Source: Callorhinchus milii
Lineage: Eukaryota
Direction: 5' to 3'
Length of the DNA: 64,000 nt
NCBI RefSeq assembly: GCF_018977255.1
Contig: NW_024704742.1
Location: 48,486,001 to 48,550,000, forward strand
Part shown: positions 7,531 through 55,053 of the stretch, piece by piece
How positions within the stretch are numbered: the first letter of the stretch is position 1
How the letters are laid out: each line of letters opens with the position of its first letter
Position numbers and translations under genes: made by a program
The notes under the pieces: model-generated
The model's database searches: none
Seen by the model: the letters and a program-made list of their open reading frames with translations, nothing else
What the model was told of the DNA's origin: nothing

Positions 7531-7552
7531 CAAATCTCTGAAAAAAACTTAC

Positions 7553-7680
7553 CGACCGTTGTCACGGCCGACACCCCAGACACGAATGCTCACAATTGGT
7601 TGAGAGTGAAGAATGGTGCGGTCCATTGGGTCGATTAGATCCAACATATTGTTCTCCAGGATGAGGTACATATCCTTGCC
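7553..7680 (-). CDS. APBB2: APBB2 exon, PTB1 middle
   Basis: GKDMYLILENNMLDLIDPMDRTILHSQPIVSIRVWGVGRDNG(R). Acceptor accag|GGC, donor CG|gtaagt; 128 nt, phase 0/2. The next exon (DFAYVARD...) was not found in the window. Confidence 0.95.
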
Positions 7681-8064
7681 CTGGTGTTTGACAAGAGAAT
7701 AAGTCAGGTCACCATCCACTCAACATTCTTCAGGCTGTTCAGTCTATGTGGAAACTTTCATATTTCATTAGGGAACAAGTTGTGTTTATATTAAGTTAGT
7801 ATTTGCAGCACAGAAACGGCACAGAATAATAATTTGAAGAGCACAATACTGTTATTGGAATCATTAAATGGGCTGAACTTCCTCTTGTAGCAGATGACAC
7901 AAGATTCCCTGCTCTCTTGCTGACAGAAAACTGCAAGAGTTAATTCGCATTGAAAGTGATTTTATTAGAACTCTGCTGGATATGGTCATGTAGAGGGTAA
8001 AGCACCACCTGCTGCAACACTAGGCTATACTGACTAAGGTTGCAGGTACATGTTAGGTTAGTGG

Positions 8065-8381
8065 ATAATAATAATAATCCTTGCATTTGATATAGTGCTT
8101 TTCAGGTCTTCTAGACGTCTCAAAGCGCTTCACAGAATATATTGTAAAGTGAATTGATTGTATATTTGTGGGCGAAACGCGGCAGCCAATTGCACACAGC
8201 AGTGTCCCACAAACAGTCGTGGATTGAAAATGACCAATTTATTATTGTTTTGTTTTGGAGCGATTATTATTAGGCCTGTGGAGTAAGGAAATTTGCCCAA
8301 GGTTTCGCCCTGCCTGGAATTGAACCACAGGTGTCTCGCTTGTAAGGCAAGTGCTCTAACCACTGAGCTACAGAACTCCAC
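8065..8381 (-). mobile_element. Same tRNA-SINE family, short variant, full length
   Basis: Head, Deu-like core and (ATT)n tail are all present on the minus strand. Confidence 0.9.
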
Positions 8382-10344
8382 ACTCTCAGCTCCCTATGTT
8401 TAAATAATCTTCTGCACTCACTGTCAAGATACTGAGAATAGTGCCACAGGGAGTGGGGGTAGTGGGGTCCCTCACATATTATTCCCAATCATTACATTAA
8501 ACCATGTGTTATATCTCGATGGCCAAGAGAAATCCTGAACACACCTGGAATCCCTCCATTCCAGCACTGGCACTGATCACTCTGGACATGCTAAGGATTC
8601 AGTAAATCAAACCATTAAGAAGGACAGAGGACAAAGTGACTTTTGGACTGTGACGGTCAGGTTAACTCCCTTTTTTTAAAAACGTAATAATCGGACAGGT
8701 AGTTGATAATAAAATCACATTAGCAATTCTGCTGTTCACACAACCTGCCCAAGGCATATTAATTCATTAAAGTCTCTATTTAACAACACCCTCTGATGAG
8801 ACAACATTCCTTAAATGTCAGGATCCATTTCCAAACAAAACCTAAATGTCAACTTCCCATTGGGCTTTCAATTTTAAACAACTATTGAGAGAAGTTTTAA
8901 GAGTCATAGGGACATACAGAGTTTGAGGACTGGGAAAGGGCATTGCAACTGGTTTACCTGGATGATCCCAAAGCAAATAATAACTATGGTAACTCATTTA
9001 TTACCCTGTCCCACAGTCCCCAATCGAATTCCTTCCTAAATAGCCATCTAATTCCCTCCTAAATTTCCTGATAAAATCTGCCCCCATAAATCTGACCCCC
9101 ACCCCGCCTGGTCTCACTGGCTCCCCATCCGCTTCGCCTTTAAAGTCCTCCACAGACTTGTTCTGCCCTATCTTTATGACTCCTAAAATCCTACCAACCT
9201 ATCCACTCCCTCTGCTTGGCAGGTACTCACCTGCTCTACATTCCTGTCAGCTCCTTTTAGCCTTTCTGCACCCACCCTCTAGAACTCCGTTCTGGCGTCC
9301 CTCCGCCTTGCCCCCTCCTTTGCCTCCATCAAGGCTCTTCTCAAGACCTTTCTCTTCAACCACGCCTTCGGTCACCTTCCCACCACCACCACCCTTGCCC
9401 TACACCCTCTTGACTCCAGTCCGCAGCTCAGGTGCAAACCCTTAACTGTACAGCACCTACTGACATCCTACCAACGTGATAGGCACTATATAGATGCAAT
9501 TTTTTTATGTTATTGTTGCCTCTACCATCCAATTAATATATGCACCACTTTGTGCACAGCACTCAAATCTATATTGTCCTTTCACAGCTTTAATTATAAT
9601 TTCTATGAATTTTTCAAAGATGTATTTCGTTCGCTTGGGTTTTGCTTCTGTAGTTTCCTACTGGCCTCCAAAGCACCAATTTACATCAATCAAATCATAT
9701 CCGCTCCAAAATCCTGTTAAGTGAATTCTTTTATCACTCAACTTACAGATGTTAGTTACTGAAGCTTGAATCACAAGTCTGTGAAAATGCTGCTGGGTTT
9801 CTCTTTTAGTGATCAAACACAAGGAAGAGCATTCTTACTCTGGAACTGTTATCCATTAGAAATAAATGTATGCAAGAAAGTGGGAAACAGATGGCAAAGA
9901 ATTCAGTGTGCATTTTTGACAAACAGCTGTGGTGAGCAGCAGACTGCTCACTGTGCAATGTGCTTCACTACAATGAAGGGTTTGACCAAGAAACAATGCT
10001 ATCCATGGCGGGGGAAAAACACAGTTGAAGAATCACTTTATTTTAGTGGGATTCACCAATAGGGACTCAGTGTTCCTAAAGGTGAATTCTACACACAATA
10101 CATCACTGCCAATTGCCAGGATCTCTGCTCCGAAGCATTGGAAGTAGATGGTATGTTGTGCAGATCCTGTGAGTCGCTATGATGGACTGCCAATAACCGG
10201 CAGGATTTCCTGTTGTGATGTACTTTCGCTGACCCTGAGGACACTCTGGGCCCTGTTAGTGTATCTTGCTGTGAATCCTAATTATTTGCCGTCCGGCATG
10301 GAGGGTGCTATATAAATCCAAGTTGTTGTTGTTGTTGTTCTTAC

Positions 10345-10491
10345 CTCTCCCCAAATCCCAACTGTGTCCCTGATATCATTCTTGCAGTAGGACAGTTGCC
10401 GGATGCAGTTGTTCACAGCTACACTGCTCTTGCCAGGTGCTAGATCTTCTTCTGCCATTTCCACCCAGCCCAAGGAGCGCACAGCAAAGCA
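10345..10491 (-). CDS. APBB2: APBB2 exon, start of PTB1/PID1 domain
   Basis: [49 protein letters not shown]. Acceptor tttcag|TGC, donor GAG|gtaaga; 147 nt, phase 0/0. Confidence 0.96.
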
Positions 10492-13400
10492 CTGAAATTC
10501 ACAGAACAATCAGGTATTAAAATCCAAACACAGCACAAGGTCTTATTTGGTCACTCAATCCACGACTGTTTGTGGGACACTGCAAGGTCCAATTGTCAAT
10601 TCACTTTACAATATATTCTGTGAAGCGGTTTCAGATATCTCAACGATGTGATGAGGTGCTTTATCAAATGCAACGATTATTATTATTATTAAAACATTTG
10701 AGCAGCATAATTAAAATGTATTTTTGTTCAAAAAGGTATATTTTTAACCTATTCAAGAAATATGTTTTGAAATGATGCAAACGGCAGTACAGTATCTTGA
10801 TCATGTACAGCACAGTGGGATACAGATTACCAATAGCTTTCTGTTGAGCAATTCCATATTGTACTCAAGACTTAAACCTGTTTTAAAAGGTCATCTAAAG
10901 TCAGTGTAAAAGAACCATCAGAGACTGGCTTAACTACATATGTAAATAGCAGTCACTATACCCCTAAGCTCCTGATTAAAACATGGTAAAAATGTATTAA
11001 TGAACGTCAGTAAAAAAAATCCAACTGACTCAGTTTACTAATGGGATAGAATCACAGTTTCTCAGAACAGTCCTTATGTCTAAACTACATCCTCCTCCTC
11101 CCTTGCTGCTCTGATTCCATTATAGATTGAAACGTGAAGACAGAGTTACTGTATTTTCTATCAAGTACAATCTGATCTTGTTATAGGAACGCAGGAACAG
11201 GAGTAGGTCGAGCCTGTTCTGTTATTTTCATAAATCATTGCTGATCAGTAACTTAATACCATTTGCCTGTTTTTCTTTAGATAGTCTTACTCACTAACTA
11301 TTTATCTACTTCCTTCTTAAACATTCCCACTGATTTCTTTGCAGCAGTGAATTTCACAATCCCACAACTATTTGAGTAAATAAATCTCTTCTGACATCAC
11401 TACTAGCAGGTCTAGATCATTTTTTAAAAAAAGATTATGTTCGCTTGTTCTGGACTCTACAACCGTAACAATGAGTCTCTTATTTATCCAATCCGCCAAT
11501 TCCCTTTACAATCTTTAACACTTTGATCAGATCATCTCTCAACCTCCTTTGTTCAAGGGAGTTGCAGCCCCAGTTTACCCCATTCTATCCTAACTAAAGA
11601 CCCTTCAATTCAGGTATCATTCAGGTGAATCTACCTTGCGTGGGCTCCAAGAACAACACGTCACAATATGCTAATCACCATTAGCTTTCACCTTAATGTT
11701 TACAATATCAACTTGTTAGCTTCTTCTCAATGGCTATTATTTTCTTGTTCTGGCTCCACTCGCTTTTTCACTGTCCTGTAAAAAAGGCCTCTCTACTCAG
11801 TGATACCAGCTTTGACAGAAGTGTCTAACTCGAAACAAATCATTTATCTATTTCTAACTTTGATCGCCCTTTTGTGGCTATCAGCCCCTTACTGTTTTAT
11901 TTCAGATGTAAGGAAGGGTCTTTAGAATTTACTGAGGGCTGGATTGTGACGTGAAAGGACTATGCTGCCCTCAGGTGGCTATTTGTTGCCATTAATATTT
12001 AACATTATTTAACATTTAACATTTAAATATTAATAAGTCCTTCCACAAATACCATTTACTTTCCATCTTAGACATCTTCATCCTCAGACCAAATCTTTGC
12101 AAATTATCATCGTCCCTGTTCACAGCAGCAACGTCACTATAACAGAGATTAACTATACAATCATAAACCACTGCACATGGAATAAACTTTCAATTATTTC
12201 TGTACATGCTGCCACACTGACAAAAAAGGAGCTTGAAATTGAAATTGTTCTTTGGAATCATTTTCATTGTAAATGGTCCAGGCGCCATAAGGGGGTTGGT
12301 CAAGAATAACCTTGTGATCAATTTGTCAATCAAATGTTATTTAAATGAAAGAAAGATCCATGGGTGTCTTAATAGTGAATGTAAGTGGGATTCAAAGGAT
12401 TGCTCTTAAAAGGACCAGCACAGACACAATGAGCTGAATGGCCTGTCAATTTCTGGCTGTCGTAGGATTCTGTTAATAAATGAACAAGAAAGTTTAAGTG
12501 GATATTCAGGTCACATTATAAAAAGGAAACGTACCTTGCAGAAAAAATAAAAGCCAAGTAAATACAGTATATAGTTATAAGTATGTATGAAAAAAGTGCC
12601 CTTTGGTATTTCTAAACACACAAAGATGCTGAGTGTTAGTTATCGAATTGTTATTACAGATTCAAAATTCAACATATATTCCAATGGGAATTACCAAACA
12701 AGGACTTGCCACAACAAAACCTTCTGATTTGTGATGATCTTGTGAAAAGGATCACCTTGACACTGTTGTTTCATGATACAAAGTCAATTTTAAGCATCTG
12801 AACTCCAGTCTGACTCAACTCTCCCAAAGCAAAGGCTTGAACCAGCACAATTGGTCACTTACTCAGCATTTTGCTGACCTCGGCAATGCTGAAAGCATCT
12901 TGTATCTGATAACATAATCACAAGAAGTTTAGCACTCATGGTATTTGAGGCAGTTAAAGTGACCCCAGCTCTTCACAAGGGCATTGAAGCTGGAAAACAG
13001 CTCTAGAACGATTTCCCCAAATAAGTACTTTGTGAGCCTTTAATTTCAATTTTATCCAAAACTTGGCCGTTCAAATTCTTTCGCTCACTATACTCCATAT
13101 ATCCTTTACCCTCAACCAAGCACTTCAATTGATCTACTTTAAGATTATTTCCCTCCCTATCAATGCAATTGCCTCCAGCTCTCTATGTCTGACTATACTT
13201 CCACATTGTAATACTGGTCTATTATTCACTCCCATTCCTTCCACCCCACCACCATTCATTCAGCTGTTCATGCTCCTTATCCTCTGAAACTCTCTTCCTG
13301 AACCAACAAGAGTGTTAAACTGTAAATCTGAGCCCAGGCTGTGAAAGTTAAACAAAGCCAACATCTTAACAAAAGCAGATTGCAAAATCCATACCAACAG

Positions 13401-14635
13401 CCAACCATTTTGTATGGTTTCTAAGACTTATGATGCCTTCAAAATTTAATCAGCAGCTCTCACCTCCTTCCTACATGAACTGTTTGTGAATTTGACATTA
13501 AAGAGTTATTACCCCAAATGTACATATTGTTATTACTAATATCCACCCTACTGTCCTCCCATCCTAGTTTAACATCAAGCAGAGTTCAGCATGCTGGTCT
13601 CAGCCAGGATTCCTGATAACCTGTTTTAGTCATTAATTACCCTTTGGGTAAAGAAATATTTCCTGGTGTCTGGCTGAAATTTGTACCCCTAAAGCTTGTT
13701 CTGATGTCTTGGCTCATCCGAAAGTAAAGATGTGGGCTTACTTTCTCGATCTCATTTAAAACCACAATCTTAAAAGTCTCAAGTGTCCAGCTTGTTTAGC
13801 TTACTCAATATTTTAATAACGAAACATACTCACTGAAGGAAGAAAACTGATTCTTTCTCCAGTGGATTTCCTTAGCGAGTTTAAATAGAGGTCATTTCCT
13901 CTAGGTGCTGCATTATTTATCTACTGTCAAATGTTGTCAGAAAATGAATATTCAGCAAGGTTTTGGAATCCACTCTGTAAATTGCTCCTGCAAGAATATG
14001 CATTGCTGTACGCATTGGGGCATTAATTACCAGGCATTAGGAGACATTTCATACATTGTGTAAAATCTACATATTGAAACTGGAAGTCTGGAAGTAGAGT
14101 TATGCTTTGTCTTTCAAACTAAATTTAATGGAGGTTTTACAAGTAAGGATTCATAGATAATGACATTACAGCTAATCCCTGCATACCTGCTGCAACAATT
14201 ATTTTTCCAATAAAAGTATTCCAACATCCAGAGGGCAATAAATCATTGGACAAACAACAGCAGAGACCAACCAGAATGATAGATTACAGGAATTTCTTAA
14301 AGGGGAAATTCCTAACAGGTAGATCTAATCCTATGCTGTATGGAGGATGTGAGAATGAAGAAAACCTCAGTGCAATAAAAATGGTAATCCAAATAATTCA
14401 GGGATTAACATGTGAGAACATTAGATCAGGGATTCCCAAACTAGGGTCTGTGTACTGCATGGGGGCCACAAGATGGTTTTAGGAGGGGCCGTGGAGCCGG
14501 GAGACACACTGTAATTGCAAAGGCTATGGAAGTCTAGTTGGAGTATGGAAAACCGTGCAACCCAAGGAAAGAATGAGAAAGGCACGTTCCTATTGTTCCA
14601 GTGCAAGGTATTTCAGGGCCGCCTTTTGTGGAGGC

Positions 14636-14690
14636 TGGAAGGAAGGGAGGGAGGGAGGGAGGGAGGGAGGAAGGGAGGGAGGAAGGGAGG
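14636..14690. repeat. (GGAR)n polypurine microsatellite; similar tract about 24660-24765
   Basis: Seen directly. Confidence 0.85.
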
Positions 14691-15574
14691 ACTCATCCAC
14701 AGGATGTCGGCACAGCCCGATGGATGGTCCTCAGTCAGGATACCTAATGACCTGGGGGCCTGGAGCCCAGAATATTTGGGGACCCCTGCATTAGATGAAG
14801 CAAAGCCAGGAAAGGAGCTGGTCTATGAAACATTGAACACAAGAGCCTCGCGAATAAGGGTGCAATTTATTTTGGTAACAGGATTTAAGGTCCTCCAATG
14901 TTCTCTTGATCTCAGATGTTGTACAGTATTATTTACATTCATACAGTCTTTCACGTCAGGAAGACATTTCAAAGAGCTTTAACAGAGCTGCATTTTATGG
15001 TGGGGGTCAGGGAAACAACCTCACCCACACCTATATCACTTGTGAAACGTTTCGTTAAAAATTGGAAGTGCGTTATAATAAATAAAACGCCGTGACCTTG
15101 GAACTTTTGATAAAAATAACTACTTAAATTTTTAAAAATCTCTTGCAACATTTTCTTTTTAAGTAAAATGCACTCACGTCCAAGTGCTGCATTATTTATC
15201 TGCAATCCTTTTTACTTCCACAGCAATGAACGCGTTTTAATGCTCTGACTGGCACTTGGCCAAAGCTCTGCTGCAGATGTCCCAAACTCGTGTCAAGTTA
15301 AGTCAATGCGGTGCTTGGCAGCAACCAAACACCCAACAGTGAGCTGGCAGTGACACGGACACTTAGTCCCATGGCGATCAGAAAAATTGGACTCGTCTTT
15401 CTTGCACCACTCTCCACATGCACAAAATAAAAATTCCAAAGAATTGGCAGGGAAATTGCTTTTGCTCCTCTATTAGAGGAGAGCACTGCTAATGGTACCA
15501 ATATTCTCCGATCACTGTATTTACGGATCTGTTAACATAGAAATGGGTTTACATTAATCCACTTTCGGCCTTCC

Positions 15575-16130
15575 CAACTCTTCCCTTCACAAGCTGCAGA
15601 TCATCCCAAACTCTGTAGCTCGTGTACTCTTGCGCACCAGGCTCCGTGACCCCATCACTCCCACCCTCACCTGACTCCACTGGCTCCCCATCCCCCAGAG
15701 GATCGAGTTCAAGATCCTCGTCCTCACTTTCAAGGCCATCCATGGCCTTGTCCCCTCCTACCTCTCTGACCTGCTAACTCTCTACCAACTTGCCCGCTCC
15801 CTCCGTTCAGCGGGCTCTGGCCTGCTCCATGTCTCCCACCCGACCCACCCTACCATCGGTGGCCGGGCTATTAGCCTCTCTGCCCCCACACTCTGGATCT
15901 CCATCCCACAGTCCCTTCACCTCGCTTCCTCCCTTGCCTTCTTCAAGGCCGGTCTCAAGACCCTCCCCTTCGATCGTGCGTTCAGTCTCTCTTCCACCTC
16001 TCTGCCTTTCCTCACCCCTACCCCACCCCTTCCCCATGCTCAGGTCCTGATCCCTGACTGTCCAGCGCCTTAGGACGTACTCCCGACGTGAAAGGTGCTC
16101 TGTAAATGTAATTTTGCTGTTGTTGTTGTA
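15575..16130 (+). mobile_element. L2 LINE 3' end
   Basis: ORF2 C-terminal motifs LHWLPIPQRIEFKIL...IGGRA, pyrimidine-rich 3'UTR, tail ggacgt...gacgtgaaaggtgct...(TGT)n. Confidence 0.88.
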
Positions 16131-16856
16131 CATGAAGGCCCATGTCACATATCCCAACATATAATAATAATAATCCCAGCATTTGATAATCGTTGAAACG
16201 TCTCATGGATTACATTGTAAAGTGGATTGACAGTGTATTTTGTGAGCAAAACATATAGCATGTGGAGAGAAAACAGTTGGGGAAAGACTCATTGCTGTTG
16301 AGAAATGTACAATCTGCGTATGAAGAAGTCATATACATGAGATGAAGTATGTTTCAGTTTACATTAGTAAAAAAGAAATTCCTTAAAATCTGTTAAAAGT
16401 CCAACAAGCCTGCAGTAATGAGTTTAAATGCAAAAAACACGTACCTCTCCCAGTGGAGTTTTTGGCGGATGGGCTTTATACATAATGAATCATTTAGAGT
16501 TAGGTGAACGTGGGCACTGGTACGGAATGACCTAAATACAAGTTGGGCTTGTGCACATTAAACATAATGTCGATATGTCGCAGTGCTTTACACAAAAATA
16601 CATGGATTATCCAAATTAAAAAAAAATGTTTTATTAGAGTTTTAGATTACAGGAATCGATGCCAAGATCTATATAACATTTAAGACTTTAAACAATGCTG
16701 TTATTTATTGAAAAACAGACCATTAAAGCAGGAAAAGGTTGAAAATGCGAGTTAATCAGCAAATTGCAGCCCAGACTAGTTGATAATTTTTACATAGAAT
16801 TACAGTGATACAGCACGGAAACGTGGCTTACGGCCCAACAATTCTGGGCCAGGAGA

Positions 16857-16893
16857 AATATATATATCTATATTATATATATATATATATATA
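16857..16893. repeat. (TA)n microsatellite; (CA)n also at about 1495-1519
   Basis: Seen directly. Confidence 0.9.
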
Positions 16894-18513
16894 GCAGGAC
16901 CAAATTCTGTTCCTCAGTGCAAATTAGCTGCACCCTTGGAATTCAGTTCCTTTCTAACAGAGTCATCTCACTCACAAGCTAGAAGCATGATTGGAATATG
17001 AGCAATGGAAATATCACACTGTAGGGGCCGCTTTAAGGTTGCGATTAGTTTCTCAGTGAGTTGTTCCTCATAAACCTATTTATTAAGGCCAATCACCTAA
17101 CCATGTTGTGGCCCATCTGGTTTCGCCACGACTCATTCCATCATGACAGTGCCCTGCTCCACTTGTCCCAGCTATTCACTTAACTCCTCACTTCATTAAA
17201 AAATGGTTCAGGAAAAAAACAGAAGAGAACTGAAGGTGCGATGTTCCTTTAGTTTATAGTATTAAGAACAATATCAGCAAACTGACCAGTTCTTGAAAAG
17301 TGAAAATGGTTTGAATCTTGTCAGGAAGGCTGACTGAGGATAGCACATTGAACTCATTTTAAAAAAAAACAGTTTGATGCTAATGATGGGAGGATAGGAG
17401 GATGGTATTCAGGAAGGATGAGATCAGATGGATTGAAGGGCATTTTTTTTTAATCTTGTGAACCCTAGAACCATAGAATTTTACAACACAGAAGGCTTTT
17501 TGACCCGCCCATTCCTGAACTCCTGCAAATGATTTCCTCTCTAGATAACTATCTGAAGATCCTAGATTCTATAAATATAAAGTGATCGTGTTTTAGTTGC
17601 ACTTCCACAGATGTGATGTACAGTGACACGAACTGAGAGGTGGGCGTACTGAAGTGTTATAAAGAGAGACAGAAGCTCATAAATAAAACCTGACATTTAT
17701 TTTAAAATTAGATCTGCCAAGCCAAACAGAATTTATTTCCTCACGGCCTTATTTAAATAATGGAAAATAAGTACATTGCATCATGCAGCACAACATTTAA
17801 TGCATCATTATGCAAGTTGACTGTCTGTTGCTTTGTGTGTCAGCCTGGCTGAGTTGGTAGCACTATCTTTTCAAGCCCCATGTCAGAAATTTGAACCCAC
17901 AAGTCTAGACTGACATTCTAATGAATAATAATATTAATCCTTGCATTTGGTATAGCGCCTTATTACATTTTTGAGACGTCTCAAAGCGCTTCACAGAATA
18001 TACTGTAAAGTGAATTGACTGTATATTTTGTGGGTGAAATAAAGTGCTGGGGTAATGCTGCATTGATGGAGATTCCATTCTTCAAGCGAGACATTAAACG
18101 TAAGACCTTAGACTGCCTGATCAGATGGACTTTAAAGATCCTGTGGCCCTATTCAAAAAGAGAAGGGAGTTTCTCCTGGTGTCTTGGCTACCAATCCTCC
18201 AGATAAAATTGGTCATTCACTTTGTGGCTGCTGTAGCACATTGCTGTGTGAAAATTGACTGCCATGTTTGCCTACAAAATACAGTCACTACAATTTACAG
18301 TAAGTCCTGTGAAGTGCTTTGAGGTGTCCTCCTGACATGTTTAAGAGCTCACTGCAGATAGTAATGTTCAATGCAGATGTTAGCCAGTCAGGAGAGACAA
18401 AAAACAGGATGTGTAGAATTATATAGACTGTACAGCACGGAAACAGGTTATTTAGCCCAACCGTGCCAATGTTTATATGCCACATGAGCCTGTACTTCTC
18501 ATGATCCACTATC

Positions 18514-18837
18514 AATAATAATAATAATAATAATCCTTGCATTTGATATAGCGTTTTTCACGTCAGGAGGACGTCCCAAAGCGCTTCACAGAACACACTG
18601 TAAAGTGAATTGACTGTATATTTGTGGGCGAACGCGGCAGCCAATTGCGCAGAGCAATGTCCCACAAACAGTCGTAGATTGAAAATGACCGATTTTATTA
18701 TTGTTTTTGGAGGGATTATTATTAGGCTCTGTGTGGAGTAAGGAAACTTGCCCAAGGTTTCGCCCTCTGCCTGGAATTGAACTCAGGTCACTCGCTTGCA
18801 AAGCGAGTGCTCTAACCACTGAGCTACAGGACTCCAC
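18514..18837 (-). mobile_element. Same tRNA-SINE family, short variant, full length
   Basis: Reverse complement aligns along its length with 29848-30176. Confidence 0.9.
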
Positions 18838-19936
18838 TCCATCAAATACCCTTCTATTTCCTTCTCCCTCATGTGTGCACCAAGTTTCCTCTTAAATATG
18901 TCGACAATTTCTGCTTTAACCAGTGTTCAGAGAGAGGGAATAGAGAAGCATAGATGAGGGGAAAAGGAGCTGTGGTTGGGGGCTTATGGGATGTACTGTA
19001 TAAACAGCAGTACACTAGTGTTTAGCCAAATGGTCTGTATCAGGGTTGTATCACTATGTAGTGAGTCCTACGTTGTCACCGTCCTAATATCCTCATTCAA
19101 TTGGATATTGCCTTCCGTGCCTGTTCTAACTCGGTTACTCGGCACTGAGGTCAGTTTTGTGTTACTGTGTTGTTATCAATGCTGTATAATATATATCACT
19201 TTCACAAGCCTCAGCGTGTTGAATATGTACCAATCGAGGCACTTACACAGATGACAATGGAGCAGTTATTAATTTATGTTCCTTCTGGTGAAGGAAACCA
19301 GCTATCCATCCAAGATTGGTTTCACCTATGCAAAGGAACACGGGCAACGAGAGCGGAACAATGATGGATTGTATGACAACCAGAAAGGGATGTAATAAAA
19401 GAGGAATGCAGTGCACTGATTACTATCTATGCATAAAATATGCACACAAGTTACTGCCAGGGAAATCTTACAGGTAATGGTGCTACCTTGTTAGAAATGC
19501 CGTCCATCTTTTCAATGAGACATTAAACAGAGCTCTTATTCACCTGTTCAGATGGATGTTAAAGATCCCATTCGCACTATTCAAAAAGAGAAGGGAGTTT
19601 CTCCCAGTATGCTGGGCAACAATTGTCCAGATAAAATTGGTCATTCACTTCATGGCCGTTTCATGGGATATTGAGTGTGCAAATTGCCTGTTGGGGTTGC
19701 CTACAAAATATACAGTCTGACTGTACTTTGCAGTAAAATTCTGTGAGAATTTTCAACAGCATAATAAAGTGCCATAACATATGCATGGATTATTATTATC
19801 CAACATCATCAGTCTCCAGGTTGTTAACACTGATTGGTGATTTCCTAAAGAGCTACAAACACGCAAATTGTCTAGAGTACAATTTGTAAGGATCAGCAAT
19901 TTCTACGATCGTATAAAAATATTAATATCAAAAGGC

Positions 19937-20245
19937 AATAACAATAATCCTTGCATTTGATATAGTGCCTTATCACGTTGTTGAGACCTCTCAAAGCACT
20001 TCACAGAATATCCTGCAAAGTGACCGTATATTTTGTGGGCGAAACAAGGCAGCCAATTGCGCACAATAATGTCCTGGGAAAAGGGATCCATGAATCGACT
20101 AATAACCAAGTTCCTATTCAATGCTAGGTAAACAGAGGCGTGTGGAGTAAGGAAAATTGCGTTAGGTTTTGCCCTGCTCACTAATCATACCCGGTCATCT
20201 TGCTTGCAAGGCAAGTGCTCTAACTGATACTCTATAGGGCTCCAC
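19937..20245 (-). mobile_element. Same tRNA-SINE family, long variant
   Basis: Head plus extra segment gcctctgtttacctagc...ttagtcga plus tail. Confidence 0.85.
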
Positions 20246-20659
20246 CAGTCAAATGAGCTTTCTAAAGTTAATAGAAATCTTTAATATCGAATATATTCTG
20301 TGTTGCTTCTGTTCATTTTATCTTCTCAACTATGCACCAGCCCTGTGAACGTAAAAAAATGGACTGTATTCAGAGCCAGGTGATGCCCCCAAGTGGCTGG
20401 ATTTTACTGGAAGTGCTGTACACAAAACATTACTGTGTAATGACAGTAGAAACCCAGCAGGTGGAACCAGCATTCTGAGCTTGTGTATTATCAAGACATC
20501 TCAGCCTTTTCTGCCTCCATCACATTATTTTGTTTCCCAATTACTGTTGCCCAGTGGTTTGTGTGTGTTTGAGCAGTGGCCAGATTGTCCCACTGTTGCT
20601 GAGACAGTCAGCCATTCCTGATAGTACCCCTATGGAACAATATTTTAAGATAATCTTCA

Positions 20660-21005
20660 GAAGGGGGATGATGAGAATTTTTTTTTAACGGTGTTACGGT
20701 CTGGAATGCACTGCCTGAAAGAGTGGTGGAAGCAGATTCAATAATGACTTTCAAAAGGGAATTGGATAGATAATAAAAAGGGAAAATCTGCAGGGCTATG
20801 GGGAAAGCGGGCGAGTGGGACTAGTTGATAGCTCTTTCAAAGAGGCACGATGGGCCGAATGGCCTCCTCCTTGGAATCATAGAATCATACAGAAGGAGGC
20901 CATTCAGACCACTGTGCCCAGGCCGGCTCTTTGAAAGAGTAATCCAAATTAATCCTACTCCCCGATCTCTCCCCATAGCCCAGCAAATTTGTCTCCCTAA
21001 ATATC
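20660..21005. mobile_element. Two CR1 3' ends joined tail-to-tail (+ copy about 20660-20872, - copy about 20875-21005); other CR1 pieces near 11185-11660(-), 31515-31655, 34560-35000, 45680-45892, 50825-50985(-), 61370-61550
   Basis: gggccgaatggcctcct tail motif and its reverse complement aggaggccattc lie adjacent. Confidence 0.8.
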
Positions 21006-21380
21006 TATGATTCGATAAGGAAATTCTAAATTCGGAGTCAACACAAAGGAGGGCAATGTGGGGACTATTCTGATGTTACAATCCCAATCAGATCTTCAGA
21101 GAACAGCCAGGAAGGTGCACAAGTAGAAAATAAACTGTCTGAGCAGTAGTATTGCCATGGTTACTGTGCATCCCAACCTGTGCAGTGTAACCATGGCACA
21201 TCCCACAGCACCAGAGACTGCATAGACTTCAATGGGAATGAACTTACTAGATAGCAGTTAGAAATATAAAACAAAGAACTTGATTTTAAATGGCCTTATC
21301 ACGCTGCTGTATGTGATGGTACGCAGCTTTCTGTGGCTGCCTAACGTATGTTTAGAGGTGGAAGTTTAGAGAGGACTGAC

Positions 21381-21441
21381 CTTGGCTTCGGGGTCACTGT
21401 TGATGGTACAGGAATCATCTTCCTCAGCTTGCAGTGGGGTT
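21381..21441 (-). CDS. APBB2: APBB2 exon preceding PTB1
   Basis: (R)TPLQAEEDDSCTINSDPEAK. Acceptor cttcatag|A, donor AAG|gtcagt; 61 nt, phase 2/0. Confidence 0.93.
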
Positions 21442-21551
21442 CTATGAAGATAAAGCAAGAGTCTGTATTTCATCAGGAAAAGATTGCAGAACAAACAAAA
21501 AGATGGGACTGGATTGAAAACTGTTCAATATTGAACTGCATTAGTGTTTAC

Positions 21552-21637
21552 CTCAGTTTCAGAGAAGCGTAGCGAAGTGTTGCTCCCTCAAACTCCTTCA
21601 GACTGGGGTCCGGGTTCTCTGTAGCAGCATGCAGGTC
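21552..21637 (-). CDS. APBB2: APBB2 exon (WW-PTB1 linker)
   Basis: DLHAATENPDPSLKEFEGATLRYASLKL(R). Acceptor ttgcag|GAC, donor AG|gtaaac; 86 nt, phase 0/2. Confidence 0.95.
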
Positions 21638-23518
21638 CTGCAACAACACAATTGCCACTTAGGTTGAAGAAACATTCAAGTCATATTTCTTAAAAGATTC
21701 AAACTATCACCAGTGGGAAGCAGGGTGCTTGGATGATGACGAATGTCACTGTTGTGACATTCCTCATCTTTGGATGAAACATTAAGGTGGCTGAGCAATC
21801 TGGGATGCCACCCTATGCAAGAGGCGTTATATAAATGCAAGTTGTTGTTGTAGGAAAAGAGGTTTGGGAGAGGGGATTAGGTAGGGTAAAAGTTGGGGGT
21901 TCAAGCCTCAAATCAAGACTTTGGGATCTCTCAGCGGGGTACCTCAAAGAGAGCGTCTCTCTGCAGAGAGGTTTAAACAGCTCCTACTGGCTCATCCTCA
22001 CCGAAATGAAGTCTGCTTCCCGTGGAATGGAAAGATCTGCCTTCCCTTTCGCCCTTTATACAATCTCGAAATCCCAGGATGCTCTTCAATGAATACCAGG
22101 ATTTGGGGAGCACCATTTCCAAACGGTTCTTGGGATTTAAATTCCTGGGATTGAGTGCGCAACCCTTACAGCGATGTCCCACAAACAGCATGAAGTGATG
22201 GACTAGTTTTATCTGGTGGATTTTTGGCCAGGACAATGGAAGAAACTCTTTGCTCTTCTAGAACAGTGATGATACGGGATCTTTAACAACCAGACAAAAC
22301 CTCAGGTCAATGTCATACAAAGCACAGTACCTCAGACAGAGAGGCAAAGCCTCAGCATTACACTGAAGTGTCATCCTAGACTATGAGATGAAGTCCCAAC
22401 GTGAGGTTTGAACCCACAATCTTCTGACTCAGAAGTGAGAGTCAGGCTGACAACCTGTCTACTACTTTGGATGAGTGTGTTATAGCCACATGCTCATACT
22501 TTACATTGAGCCATTACCCACTGCCACAAATGTTGAGTCTTTAAACCTACAATTCCATTTCTTCACTAGCTTTGATTTTCAGAACTGGTCATAAGGAGAC
22601 TCTAGTGGGCCATTAGAACACATAAAACACTCAGCTGTCAACTCCAACTGTGGAATAACACTAAGGTATCAATACCAACGGTTTGCAAGCAATCCCTGTT
22701 GAGCCCTTCCAGCAAAACCAGTTCATCGTAAGCTCACAGCACAAAAGGAGGCATTCGGCTCACTGTGTCTATGCTCGTGCAAGCTCTCTCATGTGATCTA
22801 TCTGGCCCATGCTATTCCTCAGTTTAATATTATTTCAATTAATATTATTATTTTTCATCAAGCATGTGTCTGATTCCCTTTTAATGCTGTTATGGACTCA
22901 TCTTCAATAGGCCATTATGGAGAAGCATTCCGCAGTTTAGCATAGTTAACATTAAAAAATTCTTCAAATCAACCTATTTTTTCTTCTGGTGATAATTCAA
23001 TTGGTGCTTTGAGAGTCCTCCCAACATGAAAGACTTTATACAAATATAATTTGTTGCTGTTGTTGTTGTTACTACTCAATGATTAGTGGAAATAGTCTCT
23101 CTCTATTTATCCTGATCAAAACTATTCAGAATCTTATGAACTTCATTAAGAAATCTAATTGAGTGGTTCCATGCTGGGCAAAGTAGCCCAGCAACTGCCT
23201 TCATAACATATGTTGAATGTTTAAATTACAGACAGAAATTGACTGGGAAAAACACATCTGAAATGTTTTTTTTCCCGACACTGGATGACATCTCACTGCA
23301 TTCATGAAACAATTCCAAAAAAATCCGACATTGATTTGAAGTAAATACAGTACTTTGGAATGTTTTCTTTCCTTAGAAATAATATCCTTTTGATTATGCA
23401 TCAGACTGTACTTGCCTTCTACCCAGTACGTGCATTCGAATAAATGCAGATATTAAATGGGATTGGCTTGATTTATGATATGCTATTTGGTTAATACAAT
23501 ATTTCACAAAATACTTGC

Positions 23519-23578
23519 CTTCCAAATGTCACTATTAATCTTTCCACCATTCAGCACAGCAAAGTCAGTCCACGGTTT
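23519..23578 (-). CDS. APBB2: APBB2 60-nt linker exon with GC donor
   Basis: KPWTDFAVLNGGKINSDIWK matches recalled KQPWSDFAVLNGGKINSDIWK. Acceptor atccag|AAA, donor AAG|gcaagt; phase 0/0. Confidence 0.9.
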
Positions 23579-24024
23579 CTGGATACATAATTATTCATGG
23601 ACATAGAGACATATCCAGAGATGTGAAAGAAACACAAGACACTGCTGTTAGCACACTGGACTAATTAGTGAGACAACATTGTACAGTTTCCAAATTCTAC
23701 AGCAAACATATTACAAACTACTTACTCTCTAAAAAGTTTGTGGCTGAGGTTTCCATCAGAGTATGACACAATCTAATGCAACAAGGGTTAATGCTGCTGG
23801 AGAAGAGCTTGCATTTCTGTTTGTAATATTTTATCTGGTAGCAGAGCTGAGCAATTCTAGGTCACACAGCATGTGTCAGCAATAATCTGAAACTTCCTCT
23901 CCTTTTCCCCTCACACATCTTTATACAAACACTGAATTGAGGTCTGTTTAATCTGAGGAACACTCACAGTTCCTGCAAGTAGAACAACACCGATGTCTTG
24001 AATGTATACTAGAAATAGGTTATT

Positions 24025-25007: not shown

Positions 25008-25216
25008 CTCACTTTCTGGAGTGGGAGATGGGGTGATGGAGCTCAGTGAGCCCTTTCTTTCCTCCAGGACCTGTGCTGTGGGAGAGATGGGGCGTTCCCA
25101 CTGAGTGGTGCCTGTTGGTATGTGCCAGTAATAGGTGCCGGCAACATCGTTGATTTTCTTCCATCCTGGCGGGAGGTCTGGGTCAGTCTGAAAGGATTGG
25201 TCGCTCCATATGTCTG
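25008..25216 (-). CDS. APBB2: APBB2 exon encoding the WW domain
   Basis: (A)[42 protein letters not shown]...[17 protein letters not shown]. Acceptor ttctcag|CAG, donor GAG|gtaaat; 209 nt, phase 1/0. Confidence 0.96.
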
Positions 25217-39496: not shown

Positions 39497-39918
39497 CCTA
39501 CAAGGCCTCACCTACAAGGCCATTCACGGCCTCACTCCCTCCTACCTCTCCGACCTACTATCCCCCTACCTACCTGCCCGTACCCTCCGTTCCTCTGGCT
39601 CCGGTCTGCTCCACATCCCCCGCCCCAACCGCCCTACCATCGGTGGCCGGGCCTTCAGCCTCTCAGCCCCTCTATCTCCCAGTGCCTTCGCCGCCTCCTC
39701 CCTTTCCTCCTTCAAGACCGGTCTCAAGACCTTTCTCTTTGACCGTGCCTTCAGCTTCCCTCTCGACTCTCTACCCCCTCCTCGCTCCCTCCCTTCCCTC
39801 CCCTCACCCTGACCATTTCCCCCCTGCTCGGGTCCTGACCCAACTGTACAGCGCCTTGGGACGTCCTCCCGACGTGAAAGGCGCTCAATAAATGGAATCT
39901 TGTTGTTGTTGTTGTTGT
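39497..39918 (+). mobile_element. L2 LINE 3' end (young)
   Basis: LTYKAIHGLTPSYLSDLL...RTLRSS...TIGGRAFS; tail gggacgtcctcccgacgtgaaaggcgct...(TGT)n. Confidence 0.9.
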
Positions 39919-41226: not shown

Positions 41227-41589
41227 GTGAAGTCCTGTACTGTAGTGGTTAGCATGCTAGCCTCGCAAGTGAGACGATCCGGGTTCGATTCCCAGGCAGG
41301 GTGAAACCTGAGGCAAGTTTCCTTATTCCACATCCATGTTTACCTAGCAGTTAAGTAGGAACCTGGTTGTTGGTCGATTGGCAGATGGCTTTCCAGGGTA
41401 ATAATCCCTCCCCGCACCAAAAAAAATTGTGGTCACTCAATCAGCGACTGTTTGTGGGACACTGCTGTGCCCAATTGGCTGCCATGTTTCGCCCACAAAA
41501 TATACAGTCAATTCACTTTACAATATATTCTGTGAAGCGCTTTGAAGACATGATGAAGCGCTACATGAAATGCAAGGATTATTATTATT
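41227..41589 (+). mobile_element. Same tRNA-SINE family, long variant
   Basis: Head GTTCGATTCC, extra internal segment, Deu-like core and (ATT)n tail. Confidence 0.88.
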
Positions 41590-41814
41590 AACAAATGTAC
41601 ACACAAATCCGTGGTAGTTTCACAGTCTTAAGCTTTTCCACTCTGATTACGTGTAACTGGTTAAATTCCATGGATCACCCCCTTCCCCATTCCCCCTCTC
41701 CCTCCCGCTCAGCAATCAATATTATTTCAATGCTTCTCTATAAACAACCTGTGTTTGTTTTAAACAATGAAAGTATGGATCGTTGTGTGTACAGATGCCT
41801 GAAGTTTTACCTAC

Positions 41815-41875
41815 CCTCACAATTCACCACAATGATGGCCAGCATGTAATCGTTCCCCAGCATCATCGTACGCAT
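41815..41875 (-). CDS. APBB2: Alternative first coding exon of APBB2 encoding an APBB3/Fe65L2-like N-terminus (MRTM)MLGNDYMLAIIVVNCE
   Basis: In-frame ATGs at 41875, 41866 and 41863. Donor GAGG|gtaggt at 41815 is phase 1, compatible with the WW exon. 13/16 identity to the recalled APBB3 N-terminus [16 protein letters not shown]. Confidence 0.85.
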
Positions 41876-42345
41876 GCATACACAGTCACACACAAAAAAA
41901 GAATTCTCCCAGGCAGTTTTAGCTAAAAATAAACTGGCTGTGAAATGCGACCTGATCAGACTGAAATATTCAGAGCCCAGACTTGCTCGGCAAAGTCTGG
42001 GGAGTCCTGTTCATCCCTAATAAGATTAATAAACAGGACAGATCATTTGGTGCATTCTGTCTTCTCCTTCCTCTCAGCACGTCGTGTTGTTATGACAACC
42101 GCTAGGATGGGTTTCTCAGCAAAGCAGTCACGTGGCTGAAGAGATACAGAAGTGGGAGGCAATTTCTTTTTATCGATTTATAAGGTGTACAATTAAAACG
42201 GGCTCAAAAGGTACAAGCTTAAGATGCACACCACTCAAATATGCGAGGGTAAAACGTCTCATCTGGCATAGGGGAGGAGCGAGACAGAAGGTTAAATCCC
42301 TTCTGCGACATTGTCTGCACTGCAGCACAGAGAGTCAATCCCTTA
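41876..42345 (-). promoter_or_regulatory. Candidate internal promoter/5'UTR for the short APBB2 isoform
   Basis: Non-repetitive sequence with retained CpGs, directly upstream of the alternative first exon. Contains X-box-like GTTGTTATGACAAC (42086-42099) and E-box GTCACGTG (42127-42134). Confidence 0.55.
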
Positions 42346-42361
42346 CTGAAGTCATTGTTAT

Positions 42362-42545
42362 ATAATAATAATCCTTGCATTTGATATAATGCCTTATCAC
42401 GTCTTTGAGACGTCTCAAAGCGCTTCACAGAATATACTGAAAACTGAATTGACCGTATATTTTGTGGGTGAAAAGCAGCAGCCAATTGCGCACAGCAGTG
42501 TCCCACAAACAGTCGTTGATTGAGTGACCAAATTATTATTTTTAT
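42362..42545 (-). mobile_element. 5'-truncated copy of the tRNA-SINE (other 3' fragments near 10545-10690, 33925-34065, 35510-35625, 39230-39353, 45915-46035)
   Basis: Core and tail only. Confidence 0.8.
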
Positions 42546-52917: not shown

Positions 52918-53692
52918 CTGTTTCATCAGGTGAAGCAGTCAATGACACACTGTCTTGTGACAGAGTTGTCCAGCTCGAATCTTCATCACTGGGAATCAGG
53001 TTCTGCATTTTGCTCAACGCAAAGTCTGCCCTTCCTCCTGGCCTGGGCGGGTCTTTCTTGCCTTCAGGACTGGAGGAAATGGTGGCCATTTGGCAATCTT
53101 CAGGAGTGGCAGAAGCACTTTCTTCACTGGCCAGAACTTCATCGCTGGATGCAGATTCAGTGTGTGACTGTGTAGCCCTCTCCTCACTGGTGGTGGGGCT
53201 ATTGCTCTGATTCTGCACTAACTCCTGAGTGGCTGACTCCAGGTCTACATAGTAATTCAGAAAGCTCTTACTCTTCCTTGGCTGTGATGCCACGGCCTCA
53301 GTGCTGGGGACATCTTGCGGATTTGCCTCCTTGCCCTCCAACTTTTCCGAGATGATATTTTTAACAACGTTCCCACTGATGTTCCTGTTCATGTCCTGCT
53401 GGCCCTGCTCTGCTGCCTTGCGCAGCTGGTTTTCCCCATTCTTGGCCAGTTTGGAGTTTGCGGAGTTGTTTACTGGGACCGGTGGGGGAGGCATGTCGCC
53501 CAGGCCCATGGCGGCCTCGATGTTAGTCAGGGCGTATTTCTTCCTGCATTTTGGAGGGGTGCTATTCTTGATTTCAGCATTCACCAATTCATTGTGTGAG
53601 GAGCGAAGGTTGAGAGTGTTGGGCGGGGTGGATGAGCCGTTGCGATTTGCCACATCTGTCTGACCGTTGCTGGTTGCGAGGAACACGGACAT
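52918..53692 (-). CDS. APBB2: APBB2 large N-terminal coding exon (exon 53712-52918; first in-frame ATG at 53692)
   Basis: Translation MSVFLATSNGQTDVANRNGSSTPPNTLNLRSSHNEL...NSTPPKCRKKYALTNIEAAMGL...KNGENQLRKAAEQGQQD...KSFLNYY...SDEDSSWTTLSQDS...SPDET matches the Fe65L1 N-terminus. Acceptor ttcgcag|TT at 53712, donor ACAG|gtactg at 52918; 795 nt, phase 1/1. Confidence 0.95.
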
Positions 53693-55053
53693 ACTGTCCA
53701 ATGTGGAGTCAACTGCGAAGAGCAGAATAAGCCAAAACTAAGTCAAATACAAGAGTATTAACAATGACAACACGGTTACTTCAAAACTCTGATAAAACAT
53801 GCACTTTTTAAAAATGTATCCAATGGTGTATTTACAACGAATAAAGACTATGCTATCAGCACATGTGTTCAGATTCATTAATGCCTAACTTGGTGTTGGG
53901 TGATTTATGTGGTGGTGGCAGGAATGATGGATTTTAGAGCAAGCTGGCAATGCTTACACTATGGAAATTCAAATAGCTCCAGTGGGAGCTAGACCCAGCA
54001 CAGATCTGATGAAGCGAAAGGTTAACCTATGAATCTACAAAAGCCCTAATCTGGGACCAATAAAAATTGGGGCAACTTTTATTCCTGGAACAAGAAGCCC
54101 TTTCACTTCCCTATTAATGAACACTCAAGATTTAAACAAATAAAACAAGAGAGCTATGATAGGATTGCTCAGTTTTAAACCAGATTCAGCAGCCAAACCT
54201 TCTCATATTCTCCTTTCCATGATCATGCTGAATTTCTGAAAATTCTTAAATTCAGTTTCAATTTGTAAACTGGTTTTACATAGTTCTTTTGGGTATGTTG
54301 TCGAGAATCAGTCACCAAGTTAAGAGTGTATTTAAGACCCTTTGTTAAAATTATGCATAATTTTAAATTTTAAGGCAATAGTCTTAAGGCTAAGAACAGG
54401 AGATGTTACATGCACAAGCCTACAAGGTGTTAAATCCTCCTTCAGGGAAACAGTCATCGCCACAGTGGTGGTACAATTCATCAACTCTACATAGGCCGTA
54501 ATAAACATGGAGTTCCCTACATAGTCTGTAATGCACACGACCGTGTTGGGAACAATTATGGTCTAGGATTGAAATGAAGTTATTGACCTTCTGACTCTTT
54601 TGAACATTTGTATAAAGAATTACTTTGGTTGTCTTGCAATCTGAGATGGAGTCCCAGCTCTAAGTAGGAGAATTACTGCGTAGATTTGCTACAAATGGAA
54701 GTTTGAATGCCCACAGGAAAGAAATGAGAATGCAGCCTTTAGGGTCTTGCTACAAAAACCTCAGTGAAATATCTGTGTGTGCCAGCAAACTAAAAACTCA
54801 CCAATGTGAACTGAAAAATAAAAATAAATGAAACCCTCAAGGTTGCCAAAGCATTTTGTTTGACTATAGATTTCGTAAAATTTAAACTGCTTTCAATAGT
54901 TTCTTCACCTCGGCAATCAATTCAAATTCTGTTTAAAATTAAAGACTTGTATCTTGTTTTCAATCTGTTTGTATTTTGCAATTTTAATTTTGAAGCTGTA
55001 TAACTTCATTAAAGACTCTTGGCTGTAGAATTTCTGAAATATCATCCATTCTA

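What the first reader, a model, noticed from the sequence alone, without database searches (positions are those of the whole stretch)
41815..41875. Hidden APBB3-type first exon inside APBB2: one gene may make both a long Fe65L1 and a short Fe65L2-like protein
Seen: in the 27.7-kb intron, the minus strand reads ATG CTG GGG AAC GAT TAC ATG CTG GCC ATC ATT GTG GTG AAT TGT GAG G|gtaggt. It is too short for the ORF track. The phase-1 donor joins the WW exon to give [35 protein letters not shown]. Knowledge (recalled): human APBB3 starts [35 protein letters not shown], an ungapped match with 13/16 identity in this exon. Inference: the pre-duplication Fe65 gene had two alternative first exons. APBB3 kept only the short one, while this APBB2 keeps both. 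The conserved hydrophobic MLAII(L/V)VNC motif may be an uncharacterised targeting or binding element.
Basis: partly seen in the sequence, partly recalled or inferred. Interest (0 to 1): 0.85.

Follow-up and report, generated by a model that had tools for sequence, protein, structure and literature searches.

The report
APBB2 alternative first exon, APBB3-like
A tiny conserved exon inside the elephant-shark APBB2 gene should let it make a short, APBB3-like adaptor protein as well as the long one; the same short form is already annotated in other fishes, frogs and a turtle, so it is real but not a new kind of thing.

Summary
On the minus strand, ATG ATG CTG ... GAG G|GTAGGT (41866-41815, donor 41814-41813) encodes MMLGNDYMLAIIVVNCE. 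Its phase-1 donor fits the WW-exon acceptor at 25216/25213. The window is Callorhinchus milii APBB2 (100% match to XP_042197477.1).

The match is far beyond chance: score 64-69, against 27 for the next best site in the window and 40 at most in 100 shuffles.

Short APBB2 isoforms starting with the orthologous peptide are already annotated in two catsharks, several teleosts, Xenopus, a poison frog and a turtle. None was found for C. milii.

In the same genome, the first coding exon of APBB3 ends at the same codon position and phase. Differences are mostly synonymous (pS 0.68, pN 0.12), and the flanks are unrelated.

So this is a conserved alternative first coding exon, paralogous to APBB3 exon 1. 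Its use in C. milii RNA could not be shown because the read data were swamped by repeats. The role of the 16-residue peptide is unknown.

The finding is solid, but its novelty is modest.

The parts
41815..41866 (-). Coding part of the alternative 5' exon of APBB2: ATG ATG ... GAG G, encoding MMLGNDYMLAIIVVNCE plus the first base of the next codon (phase 1). The 5' end of the exon (transcription start or acceptor) is not known.
   Evidence: 13 of 17 residues identical to catshark XP_038647257.1 (P0112). Paralogous to C. milii APBB3 exon 1.
41813..41814 (-). GT of the 5' splice site (AGG|GTAGGT).
   Evidence: It sits at the same position and phase as the APBB3 donor GAT G|GTGAGA.
41873..41875 (-). 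Further in-frame ATG three codons upstream (would add MRT). It has T at -3 and is not matched in the orthologues. An out-of-frame ATG lies at 41879-41877.
   Evidence: Read directly from the sequence.
41923..41924 (-). AG behind a T-rich tract (tttatttttAG|CT). This is a possible acceptor that would make a 108-base, frame-preserving exon (41922-41815), or join an untranslated upstream exon. Hypothetical.
   Evidence: frame open from 41935; 108 = 36 x 3. The residues upstream of MM are not conserved in other species' models.
25008..25216 (-). WW-domain exon of APBB2, entered in phase 1. It has a tandem (NAGNAG) acceptor giving exon starts at 25216 or 25213.
   Evidence: Pfam WW, 36 bits. 100% identical to C. 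milii APBB2 X4 and X1, which differ by the extra A.
52918..53710 (-). Large N-terminal coding exon of the long isoforms (residues ~17-280 of XP_042197477.1). Its donor is ACA G|GT at 52918|52917. The short isoform would leave this exon out. The 5' end is approximate.
7552..23581 (-). Downstream APBB2 exons shared by both isoforms, including the start of PTB1: 23581-23519, 21646-21551, ~21470-21381, 10500-10345, 7683-7552.
   Evidence: tblastn of P0004 and P0112 on the window.

Best explanation
This is a genuine, anciently conserved alternative 5' coding exon of APBB2 (Fe65L1). It lies 16.6 kb upstream of the WW-domain exon, inside the 27.7-kb intron that follows the large N-terminal exon. It carries its own start codon (a conserved double ATG), 17 codons and a phase-1 donor.

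Transcripts that begin at or pass through it and skip the large exon would encode a protein of about 500 residues: MMLGNDYMLAIIVVNCE-(A)DIWSD..., followed by WW, PTB1 and PTB2. That is the architecture of APBB3 (Fe65L2). It lacks the ~280-residue N-terminal region of the long form.

The exon is the paralogue of the first coding exon of APBB3, so the two-start design predates the APBB2/APBB3 duplication.

Shown here: the sequence, the frame and phase fit, orthology to annotated short isoforms, paralogy with APBB3 including exon boundary and phase, and coding-type constraint.

Inferred: that C. milii actually transcribes and splices it, that it is a first exon driven by its own promoter, and that the 16-residue peptide has a function of its own.
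For: (1) Sequence and phase fit.

(2) The window is C. milii APBB2. The WW exon and large exon match XP_042197477.1 (P0004) at 100% and 99.6%.

(3) Beyond chance: score 64-69, against 27 for the next best site and at most 40 in 100 shuffles.

(4) Orthologous annotated isoforms. In one search, 12 of the 120 listed clusters (281 candidates) match the N-terminal 40 residues of catshark X9 at E <= 2.5e-11. Models that start at the Met are S. canicula X8/X9 (XP_038647256.1/57.1), S. torazame X5, five teleost clusters, Xenopus laevis X14/X15, Ranitomeya X8 and a Platysternon model.

(5) Same genome, APBB3. The exon ATG CTG GGG AAA GAC ... TAT GAT G|gtgaga joins cag|AC AAC CTG TGG, with an identical boundary and phase.

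(6) Nei-Gojobori over 16 codons, APBB2 versus APBB3 exon: 6.5 synonymous differences on 9.5 sites (pS 0.68) against 4.5 on 38.5 (pN 0.12). Exon identity is 38 of 49 bases, while the flanks show 13 of 40 and 10 of 40.

(7) Only these two loci in the 991-Mb assembly match a degenerate GKDYMLAI pattern at 0-1 mismatch.

(8) Domain layout WW + 2 PID in the short catshark isoform and in C. milii APBB3.
Against: No RNA evidence from C. milii. No listed run is on record as RNA. In the laid contigs, repeat-derived joints filled the 15 rows shown out of 1,078, and none of those rows is the 41815>25216 joint.

All 12 C. milii APBB2 proteins seen in the collection are long forms: 10 full-length cluster members of 733-762 aa and one 52-aa piece, plus P0003 at 686 aa. 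No protein of 71-2000 aa matched the peptide.

There is no CpG island or recognisable promoter upstream. CpG observed/expected is 0.52-0.58 against a window mean of 0.34, at GC 0.43.

An out-of-frame ATG lies 13 bases upstream of the start codon.

The donor matches 7 of 9 consensus positions (consensus recalled).

The dN/dS figure sums both paralogue lineages over only 16 codons.
Confidence: 0.8

Rival explanations
1. Relic exon. The sequence descends from the ancestral short-isoform exon but is no longer used in the elephant shark, which would make only long APBB2.
For: No short isoform among the C. milii APBB2 proteins seen. No RNA support was obtained. Y>C and K>N changes occur at otherwise well-kept positions. 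In a pigeon ab initio model the corresponding segment is degenerate (P0147), so loss does happen in some lineages.
Against: The start codons, the open frame and the GT donor in the right phase are all intact. 13 of 17 residues are identical to the catshark peptide. Changes against the APBB3 paralogue are mostly synonymous, while the flanks are at random-level identity. A long-unused 52-base piece of intron would not stay like this.
Confidence: 0.1
2. Internal exon rather than first exon. Using the AG at 41924-41923, it would be a 108-base, frame-preserving cassette between the large exon and the WW exon, inserting 36 residues into the long protein. Alternatively it would be a second exon behind an untranslated first exon.
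For: The frame is open from 41935. 108 is a multiple of 3, and both neighbouring junctions are phase 1. Three non-RefSeq gene models (Aldrovandia P0140, Acipenser P0142, Danionella P0143) place the peptide inside a long protein.
Against: The residues upstream of the double Met are unrelated between species. The 11 models listed under evidence point 4 of the best explanation, plus the Platysternon model, start at the Met. The double ATG is conserved, which only matters for a start codon. The three internal placements come from ab initio models that may simply have chained exons.
Confidence: 0.08
3. Chance open frame with a chance GT, unrelated to Fe65 genes.
For: The frame is short (17 codons), and hydrophobic peptides are common.
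Against. It is a unique top hit in the window, well beyond all shuffles. It has the same exon boundary and phase as APBB3. Only two such loci exist in the genome, both in Fe65-family genes directly upstream of their WW exons.
Confidence: 0.01

Closest known systems
Annotated short APBB2 isoforms of other vertebrates, e.g. Scyliorhinus canicula X8/X9 (XP_038647256.1, XP_038647257.1), Xenopus laevis X14/X15 (XP_041444534.1, XP_041444537.1), Sander X12 (XP_031141587.1)
   Same: Same gene (orthologues). Same N-terminal peptide: [17 protein letters not shown] in catshark and [17 protein letters not shown] in teleosts. Same junction to the WW exon, including both NAGNAG forms (E-DIW and EA-DIW). About 500 residues with WW + PTB1 + PTB2.
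   Different: Those are computed RefSeq or other gene models in other species. For C. milii no such isoform was found in the collection. The C. milii peptide has N for K/R at position 5 and C for Y at position 16.
First coding exon of APBB3 (Fe65L2), e.g. C. milii XP_007900143.1 / V9KHZ5 (P0408, P0409), duck and whale-shark APBB3
   Same: 12-13 of 16 residues identical. The exon ends after the first base of codon 17 with a GT donor. It joins the WW exon in phase 1, at the same distance from the LPPGW motif.
   Different: In APBB3 this is the only N-terminus in most models, and no large N-terminal exon is known (review PMC8304848, passages read). In APBB2 it is an alternative to a ~280-residue N-terminal region. 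It is a paralogue, not an orthologue. APBB3 has DN[LI]W after the junction, and APBB2 has (A)DIW.
Short N-terminal isoforms of APBB1 (Fe65): UniProt isoforms 3, 5 and 6 and p60Fe65
   Same: The review PMC8304848 (passages read) says isoforms 3, 5 and 6 lack 240 N-terminal residues and carry 6-20 other residues from alternative starts. This is the same design: a long acidic N-terminus or a short one, ahead of the WW domain. A turtle APBB1-type fragment (P0366) reads GRGTDWALPIIVTGAPD-ASW in the same register.
   Different: I did not see the human APBB1 isoform sequences, so homology of their short N-termini to this exon is untested. p60Fe65 is described as coming from the same transcript (PMC4899880, passages read), not from an alternative exon.

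Membership tests
Fe65/APBB adaptor family (gene identity of the window: APBB2) | WW domain followed by two PTB/PID domains | tested here: met
   The WW exon in the window scores 36 bits against Pfam WW. P0004 (C. milii APBB2) and P0112 have WW + 2 PID stretches. The best solved-structure matches are the Fe65 and Fe65L2 WW domains. The window itself holds only the WW exon and the first PTB1 exons.
Fe65/APBB adaptor family (gene identity of the window: APBB2) | Orthology to APBB2 rather than APBB1 or APBB3 | tested here: met
   100% and 99.6% identity of window exons to XP_042197477.1, named APBB2. APBB3 lies on another contig, C13.
Short APBB2 isoform with APBB3-type N-terminus (as annotated in catsharks, teleosts, frogs) | Exon with a start codon encoding M(M)LG[KRN][DE][YC]xL[AT]I[IV][IV][VL]N[YC][EDQ] | tested here: met
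Short APBB2 isoform with APBB3-type N-terminus (as annotated in catsharks, teleosts, frogs) | Phase-1 donor compatible with the WW-exon acceptor, and a position in the intron just upstream of the WW exon | tested here: met
   The joined reading frame gives the same junction residues (E-(A)DIWSD) as in the annotated orthologues.
Short APBB2 isoform with APBB3-type N-terminus (as annotated in catsharks, teleosts, frogs) | Spliced transcript joining the exon to the WW exon in this species | tested here: inconclusive
   No run is on record as RNA. The contig joints shown were repeat-derived, and 1,063 further joints were not shown.
Short APBB2 isoform with APBB3-type N-terminus (as annotated in catsharks, teleosts, frogs) | Own promoter or transcription start (first exon in the strict sense) | not testable with these tools
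   No CAGE or 5' end data. There is only a mild CpG rise and no island.
Paralogy with APBB3 exon 1 | Same exon boundary and phase, coding-type divergence, unrelated flanks | tested here: met
   (pS 0.68, pN 0.12; exon 38 of 49 identical, flanks 13 of 40 and 10 of 40).

The most novel reading that the evidence does not exclude
The 16-residue peptide [16 protein letters not shown]/E is an old, separately selected functional module of 'short Fe65' proteins. It could be a docking strand, degron or localisation element. It would have existed as an alternative N-terminus before the vertebrate genome duplications. It would survive as the only start of APBB3, as an alternative start of APBB2 in cartilaginous fishes, ray-finned fishes, frogs and turtles, and as a decayed trace in APBB1. 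No annotated mammalian or intact avian APBB2 form appeared. If so, the long/short switch is an ancestral regulatory feature of the whole Fe65 family, and APBB3 is a gene-sized fixation of one isoform.
Probability: 0.4. Interest if true: 0.5.

Novelty: new member of a known kind. Interest (0 to 1): 0.3.

Why it matters
Fe65-family adaptors link the amyloid precursor protein to actin, trafficking and nuclear signalling. Their long N-terminal region carries partner sites that APBB3 lacks. ELMO1 binding is described for Fe65 (review PMC8304848, passages read).

A conserved internal start that turns APBB2 into an APBB3-like protein has three consequences:
- The long/short choice is an old, regulated feature of the family.
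- Knock-outs or antibodies aimed at the APBB2 N-terminus could leave a short form untouched in species that have it.
- APBB3 can be read as the short isoform made permanent after gene duplication.

For genome annotation, the practical point is that the C. milii gene models appear to miss this isoform. None of this is a new kind of biology, because alternative first exons are common and this one is already in other species' annotations.

Tried and rejected
It was repeated as with the limit value.

(2) searched with the 40-residue read-through of the exon, at lengths 'longer'. Two candidates came back and none scored E <= 10. I use this only as a weak sign that no C. milii short isoform is in the collection.

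(3) RNA evidence. No RNA holder was listed. Laying X1, X6, X7 and X8 on 24900-42400 gave depth and joints dominated by interspersed repeats. 15 of 1,078 joints were shown, and none is 41815>25216. No conclusion either way.

(4) AlphaFold2 of catshark X9 with a 31-row alignment. Mean pLDDT was 58. Residues 1-25 were below 50, with a 3-residue strand at 10-12. This gave no usable structural hint for the peptide. I did not run a complex prediction because I make no binding claim.

(5) Search for a third copy in the genome with a degenerate pattern. The total was 47 hits at up to 3 mismatches, against 29 for the reversed control. The four loci inspected (L020-L023) have no start codon, frame or donor, so I rejected them.

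(6) Search for an APBB1 locus in the assembly with an APBB1-type protein. All 12 matches lie on the APBB2 and APBB3 loci, so the APBB1 intron could not be examined in this species.

(7) Promoter signs. There is no CpG island.

(8) Literature. 'APBB2' + 'alternative promoter' gave 6 papers, none relevant by title or abstract. 'Fe65L1' + 'Fe65L2' + 'isoform' gave 23 papers, of which I read passages from two. 'APBB2' + 'alternative first exon' gave 0. The peptide string gave 0. 'Fe65L1' + 'N-terminally truncated' gave 1, the same review. Tanahashi & Tabira 2002 (PMC1222940) is not held.

(9) (a slow script) timed out and was rewritten.

(10) Earlier scan notes held nothing on this gene.

Full report
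What is there.

On the minus strand the window reads ...gcgtacg ATG ATG CTG GGG AAC GAT TAC ATG CTG GCC ATC ATT GTG GTG AAT TGT GAG G|gtaggtaaa.
- The two ATGs are at 41866 and 41863.
- A further in-frame ATG is at 41875.
- The last exon base is 41815.
- The GT donor is at 41814-41813.

The translation is MMLGNDYMLAIIVVNCE. The donor leaves one base of the next codon (phase 1).

The WW-domain exon lies 16.6 kb downstream at 25216-25008. It has a tandem acceptor, tctcAGcAG.

Which gene.

The WW exon is 100% identical to Callorhinchus milii APBB2 isoforms (P0003, and P0004 = XP_042197477.1). tblastn places P0004 residues 16-280 on the large exon at 53713-52919, and further exons at 23581, 21646, 10500 and 7683. 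The large exon ends ACA G|GT at 52918. Both NAGNAG forms are annotated in C. milii long isoforms: X1 has ...PDETADIWSD and X4 has ...PDETDIWSD.

More than chance.

I scanned all six frames of the window with the 17-residue N-termini of annotated short APBB2 isoforms.
- The site at 41866-41816(-) scored 64 (catshark) and 69 (cichlid).
- The next best site in the window scored 27.
- The best site in each of 100 shuffled windows scored 22-40.

Already annotated elsewhere.

Among the 120 best of 1,557 matches to the WW exon, two proteins had the WW motif within 40 residues of the N-terminus and began with the homologous peptide:
- catshark APBB2 isoform X9 (P0112, 498 aa): [22 protein letters not shown]...
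- a mis-named Platysternon protein (P0070): MLLAMMLGRDYVLTIVIVNYE-ADIWSD...

A search scored on residues 1-40 of P0112 listed 12 clusters at E <= 2.5e-11, out of 281 candidates (120 listed). The clusters and their members comprise:
- S. canicula X8 and X9, and S. torazame X5.
- Teleosts: Simochromis X6, Acanthopagrus, Corythoichthys X4, Lates, Vanacampus X4 and Sander X12.
- Xenopus laevis X14 and X15, and Ranitomeya X8.
- Three ab initio models (Aldrovandia, Acipenser ruthenus, Danionella) in which the peptide sits inside a longer protein.

The next row is a pigeon model with a degenerate segment (P0147, 45 bits). Every row after it covers only the WW part. No mammalian short form appeared, and no bird form other than this degenerate pigeon segment. 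That holds only for this collection and for lengths of 273-872 residues.

For C. milii itself, the 90% cluster around P0004 holds 10 named or Ensembl-type isoforms of 733-762 aa and one 52-aa piece. P0003 is 686 aa. None is short. A search with the read-through translation of the exon found no protein of 71-2000 aa. The exon therefore seems to be missing from the C. milii annotation, although I cannot exclude a record outside what these calls showed.

Relation to APBB3.

A search of 1.84 billion cluster representatives with P0112 returned proteins with [11 protein letters not shown][IL]VN[YC]D-DN[LI]W directly ahead of the WW motif. An exact look-up names them APBB3:
- whale shark (P0277)
- duck (P0350: [16 protein letters not shown]...)
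- Syngnathoides (P0300)
- Acanthochromis
- Lampris
- C. milii itself (P0407, P0408 = XP_007900143.1, P0409 = V9KHZ5): [35 protein letters not shown]

I did not see the human record.

The window's own assembly is held. There, APBB3 lies on contig C13. Its first coding exon reads ATG CTG GGG AAA GAC TAC ATG TTG GCG ATT ATT ATT GTC AAC TAT GAT G|gtgagagt. Its WW exon starts ...ttaccag|AC AAC CTG TGG. The exon end, the donor and the phase are exactly those of the APBB2 mini-exon.

Over the 16 shared codons there are 6.5 synonymous differences on 9.5 sites and 4.5 non-synonymous on 38.5 sites (pS 0.68, pN 0.12). The exon is 38 of 49 bases identical, while 40 bases on either side are 13 and 10 of 40 identical. 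This is the signature of two coding exons kept by selection since an old duplication. The figure sums both lineages and rests on few sites.

A degenerate pattern for GKDYMLAI found only these two loci at 0-1 mismatch in 991 Mb. Weaker hits were at the level of the reversed control, and the four I inspected lacked exon features.

APBB1.

An APBB1-type query found no third locus in this assembly (12 of 12 matches lie on the APBB2 and APBB3 loci). The point could therefore not be tested in C. milii.

One turtle fragment (P0366) is APBB1-type by its best solved-structure matches. It reads GRGTDWALPIIVTGAPD-ASW in the same register. Against five of six reference peptides, 0-1 of 20,000 composition-preserving shuffles reached its score. 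Against the sixth, 8 did.

The review PMC8304848 (passages read) states that Fe65 isoforms 3, 5 and 6 replace 240 N-terminal residues by 6-20 residues from alternative starts, and that the long N-terminal region is missing in Fe65L2. It does not mention an APBB3-like start in Fe65L1. Together this makes an origin before the split of all three paralogues plausible but not proven.

How it most likely works.

An alternative start in the intron gives an mRNA that lacks the large N-terminal exon. The mRNA encodes the 16-17-residue peptide fused to WW-PTB1-PTB2, which is the domain set found in the catshark short isoform and in APBB3. The short form would keep the WW and PTB partners but lose whatever binds the long N-terminus.

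Whether the exon has its own promoter is not known. There is only a mild CpG rise (0.52-0.58 against 0.34) and no island. An AG behind a T-tract at 41924-41923 could instead receive an upstream exon. That would even give a frame-preserving 108-base cassette. However, the residues ahead of the double Met are not conserved, so I give this low weight.

The peptide's own role is unknown. Its conservation in two paralogues argues for one. The AlphaFold2 model gives pLDDT below 50 for residues 1-25.

What could not be shown.

Use of the exon in C. milii RNA was not demonstrated. No run is on record as RNA. The contigs laid on 24900-42400 were dominated by interspersed repeats.

Literature.

Five full-text searches found no paper describing this isoform or the paralogy. 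Subscription papers and database records were not searchable.

Verdict.

This is a real, conserved alternative 5' coding exon of APBB2, paralogous to APBB3 exon 1. It is apparently unannotated in the elephant shark but public in many other vertebrates' gene models. It is a sound catch of modest novelty.

Noticed in passing
window 25213-25219 (-): The WW exon has a NAGNAG tandem acceptor (tcAGcAG). Both products are annotated: C. milii X1 (...ETADIW) and X4 (...ETDIW), and likewise catshark X8/X9 and Xenopus X14/X15 in the short isoform. This one-residue choice is kept from chimaera to frog.
   Followed up: partly
own genome G000: An APBB1-type protein query matched only the APBB2 (C1) and APBB3 (C13) loci (12 of 12 matches). 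No APBB1 locus was detected in this assembly. This could be gene loss, an assembly gap or a limit of the first-look filter.
   Followed up: no
P0136 (Scyliorhinus canicula APBB2 isoform X10): This is a second route to a short APBB2. The MGRRYPG... first exon is joined directly to the WW exon (MGRRYPGEYHRPNIIS-DIWSD), skipping the large exon, to give 497 aa.
   Followed up: no
P0366 (Terrapene, APBB1-type fragment): It carries GRGTDWALPIIVTGAPD-ASW ahead of the WW motif, a degenerate look-alike of the mini-exon in the same register. This is a possible trace of the same alternative exon in APBB1.
   Followed up: partly
L010 nt ~1450-1777 (G000:C13, APBB3 first coding exon): The frame upstream of the APBB3 start MLGKDY is open for about 90 codons. 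RefSeq XP_042196040.1 (531 aa) starts there (MLRAAVAGYQ...), so C. milii APBB3 may itself have a longer N-terminal variant. An Ensembl-type model (P0273) has yet another N-terminus.
   Followed up: no
window, e.g. 8130-8393(-), 18586-18891(-), 29874-30239(+), 41355-41591(+), 42219-42563(-), 48888-49157(+), 63127-63447(+): Many copies of one interspersed repeat have an open frame reading ...[34 protein letters not shown]... They are very abundant in the laid contigs (depth up to 4e5). They are what made the read-laying uninformative.
   Followed up: no
P0372 (127 aa, teleost-like APBB2 paralogue) and P0147 (Columba guinea model): These are divergent or decayed versions of the peptide (MLAILLRTIRY-DIW and ...HSCSFIVAIYQK-ADIW). 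They suggest lineage-specific erosion of the exon.
   Followed up: no
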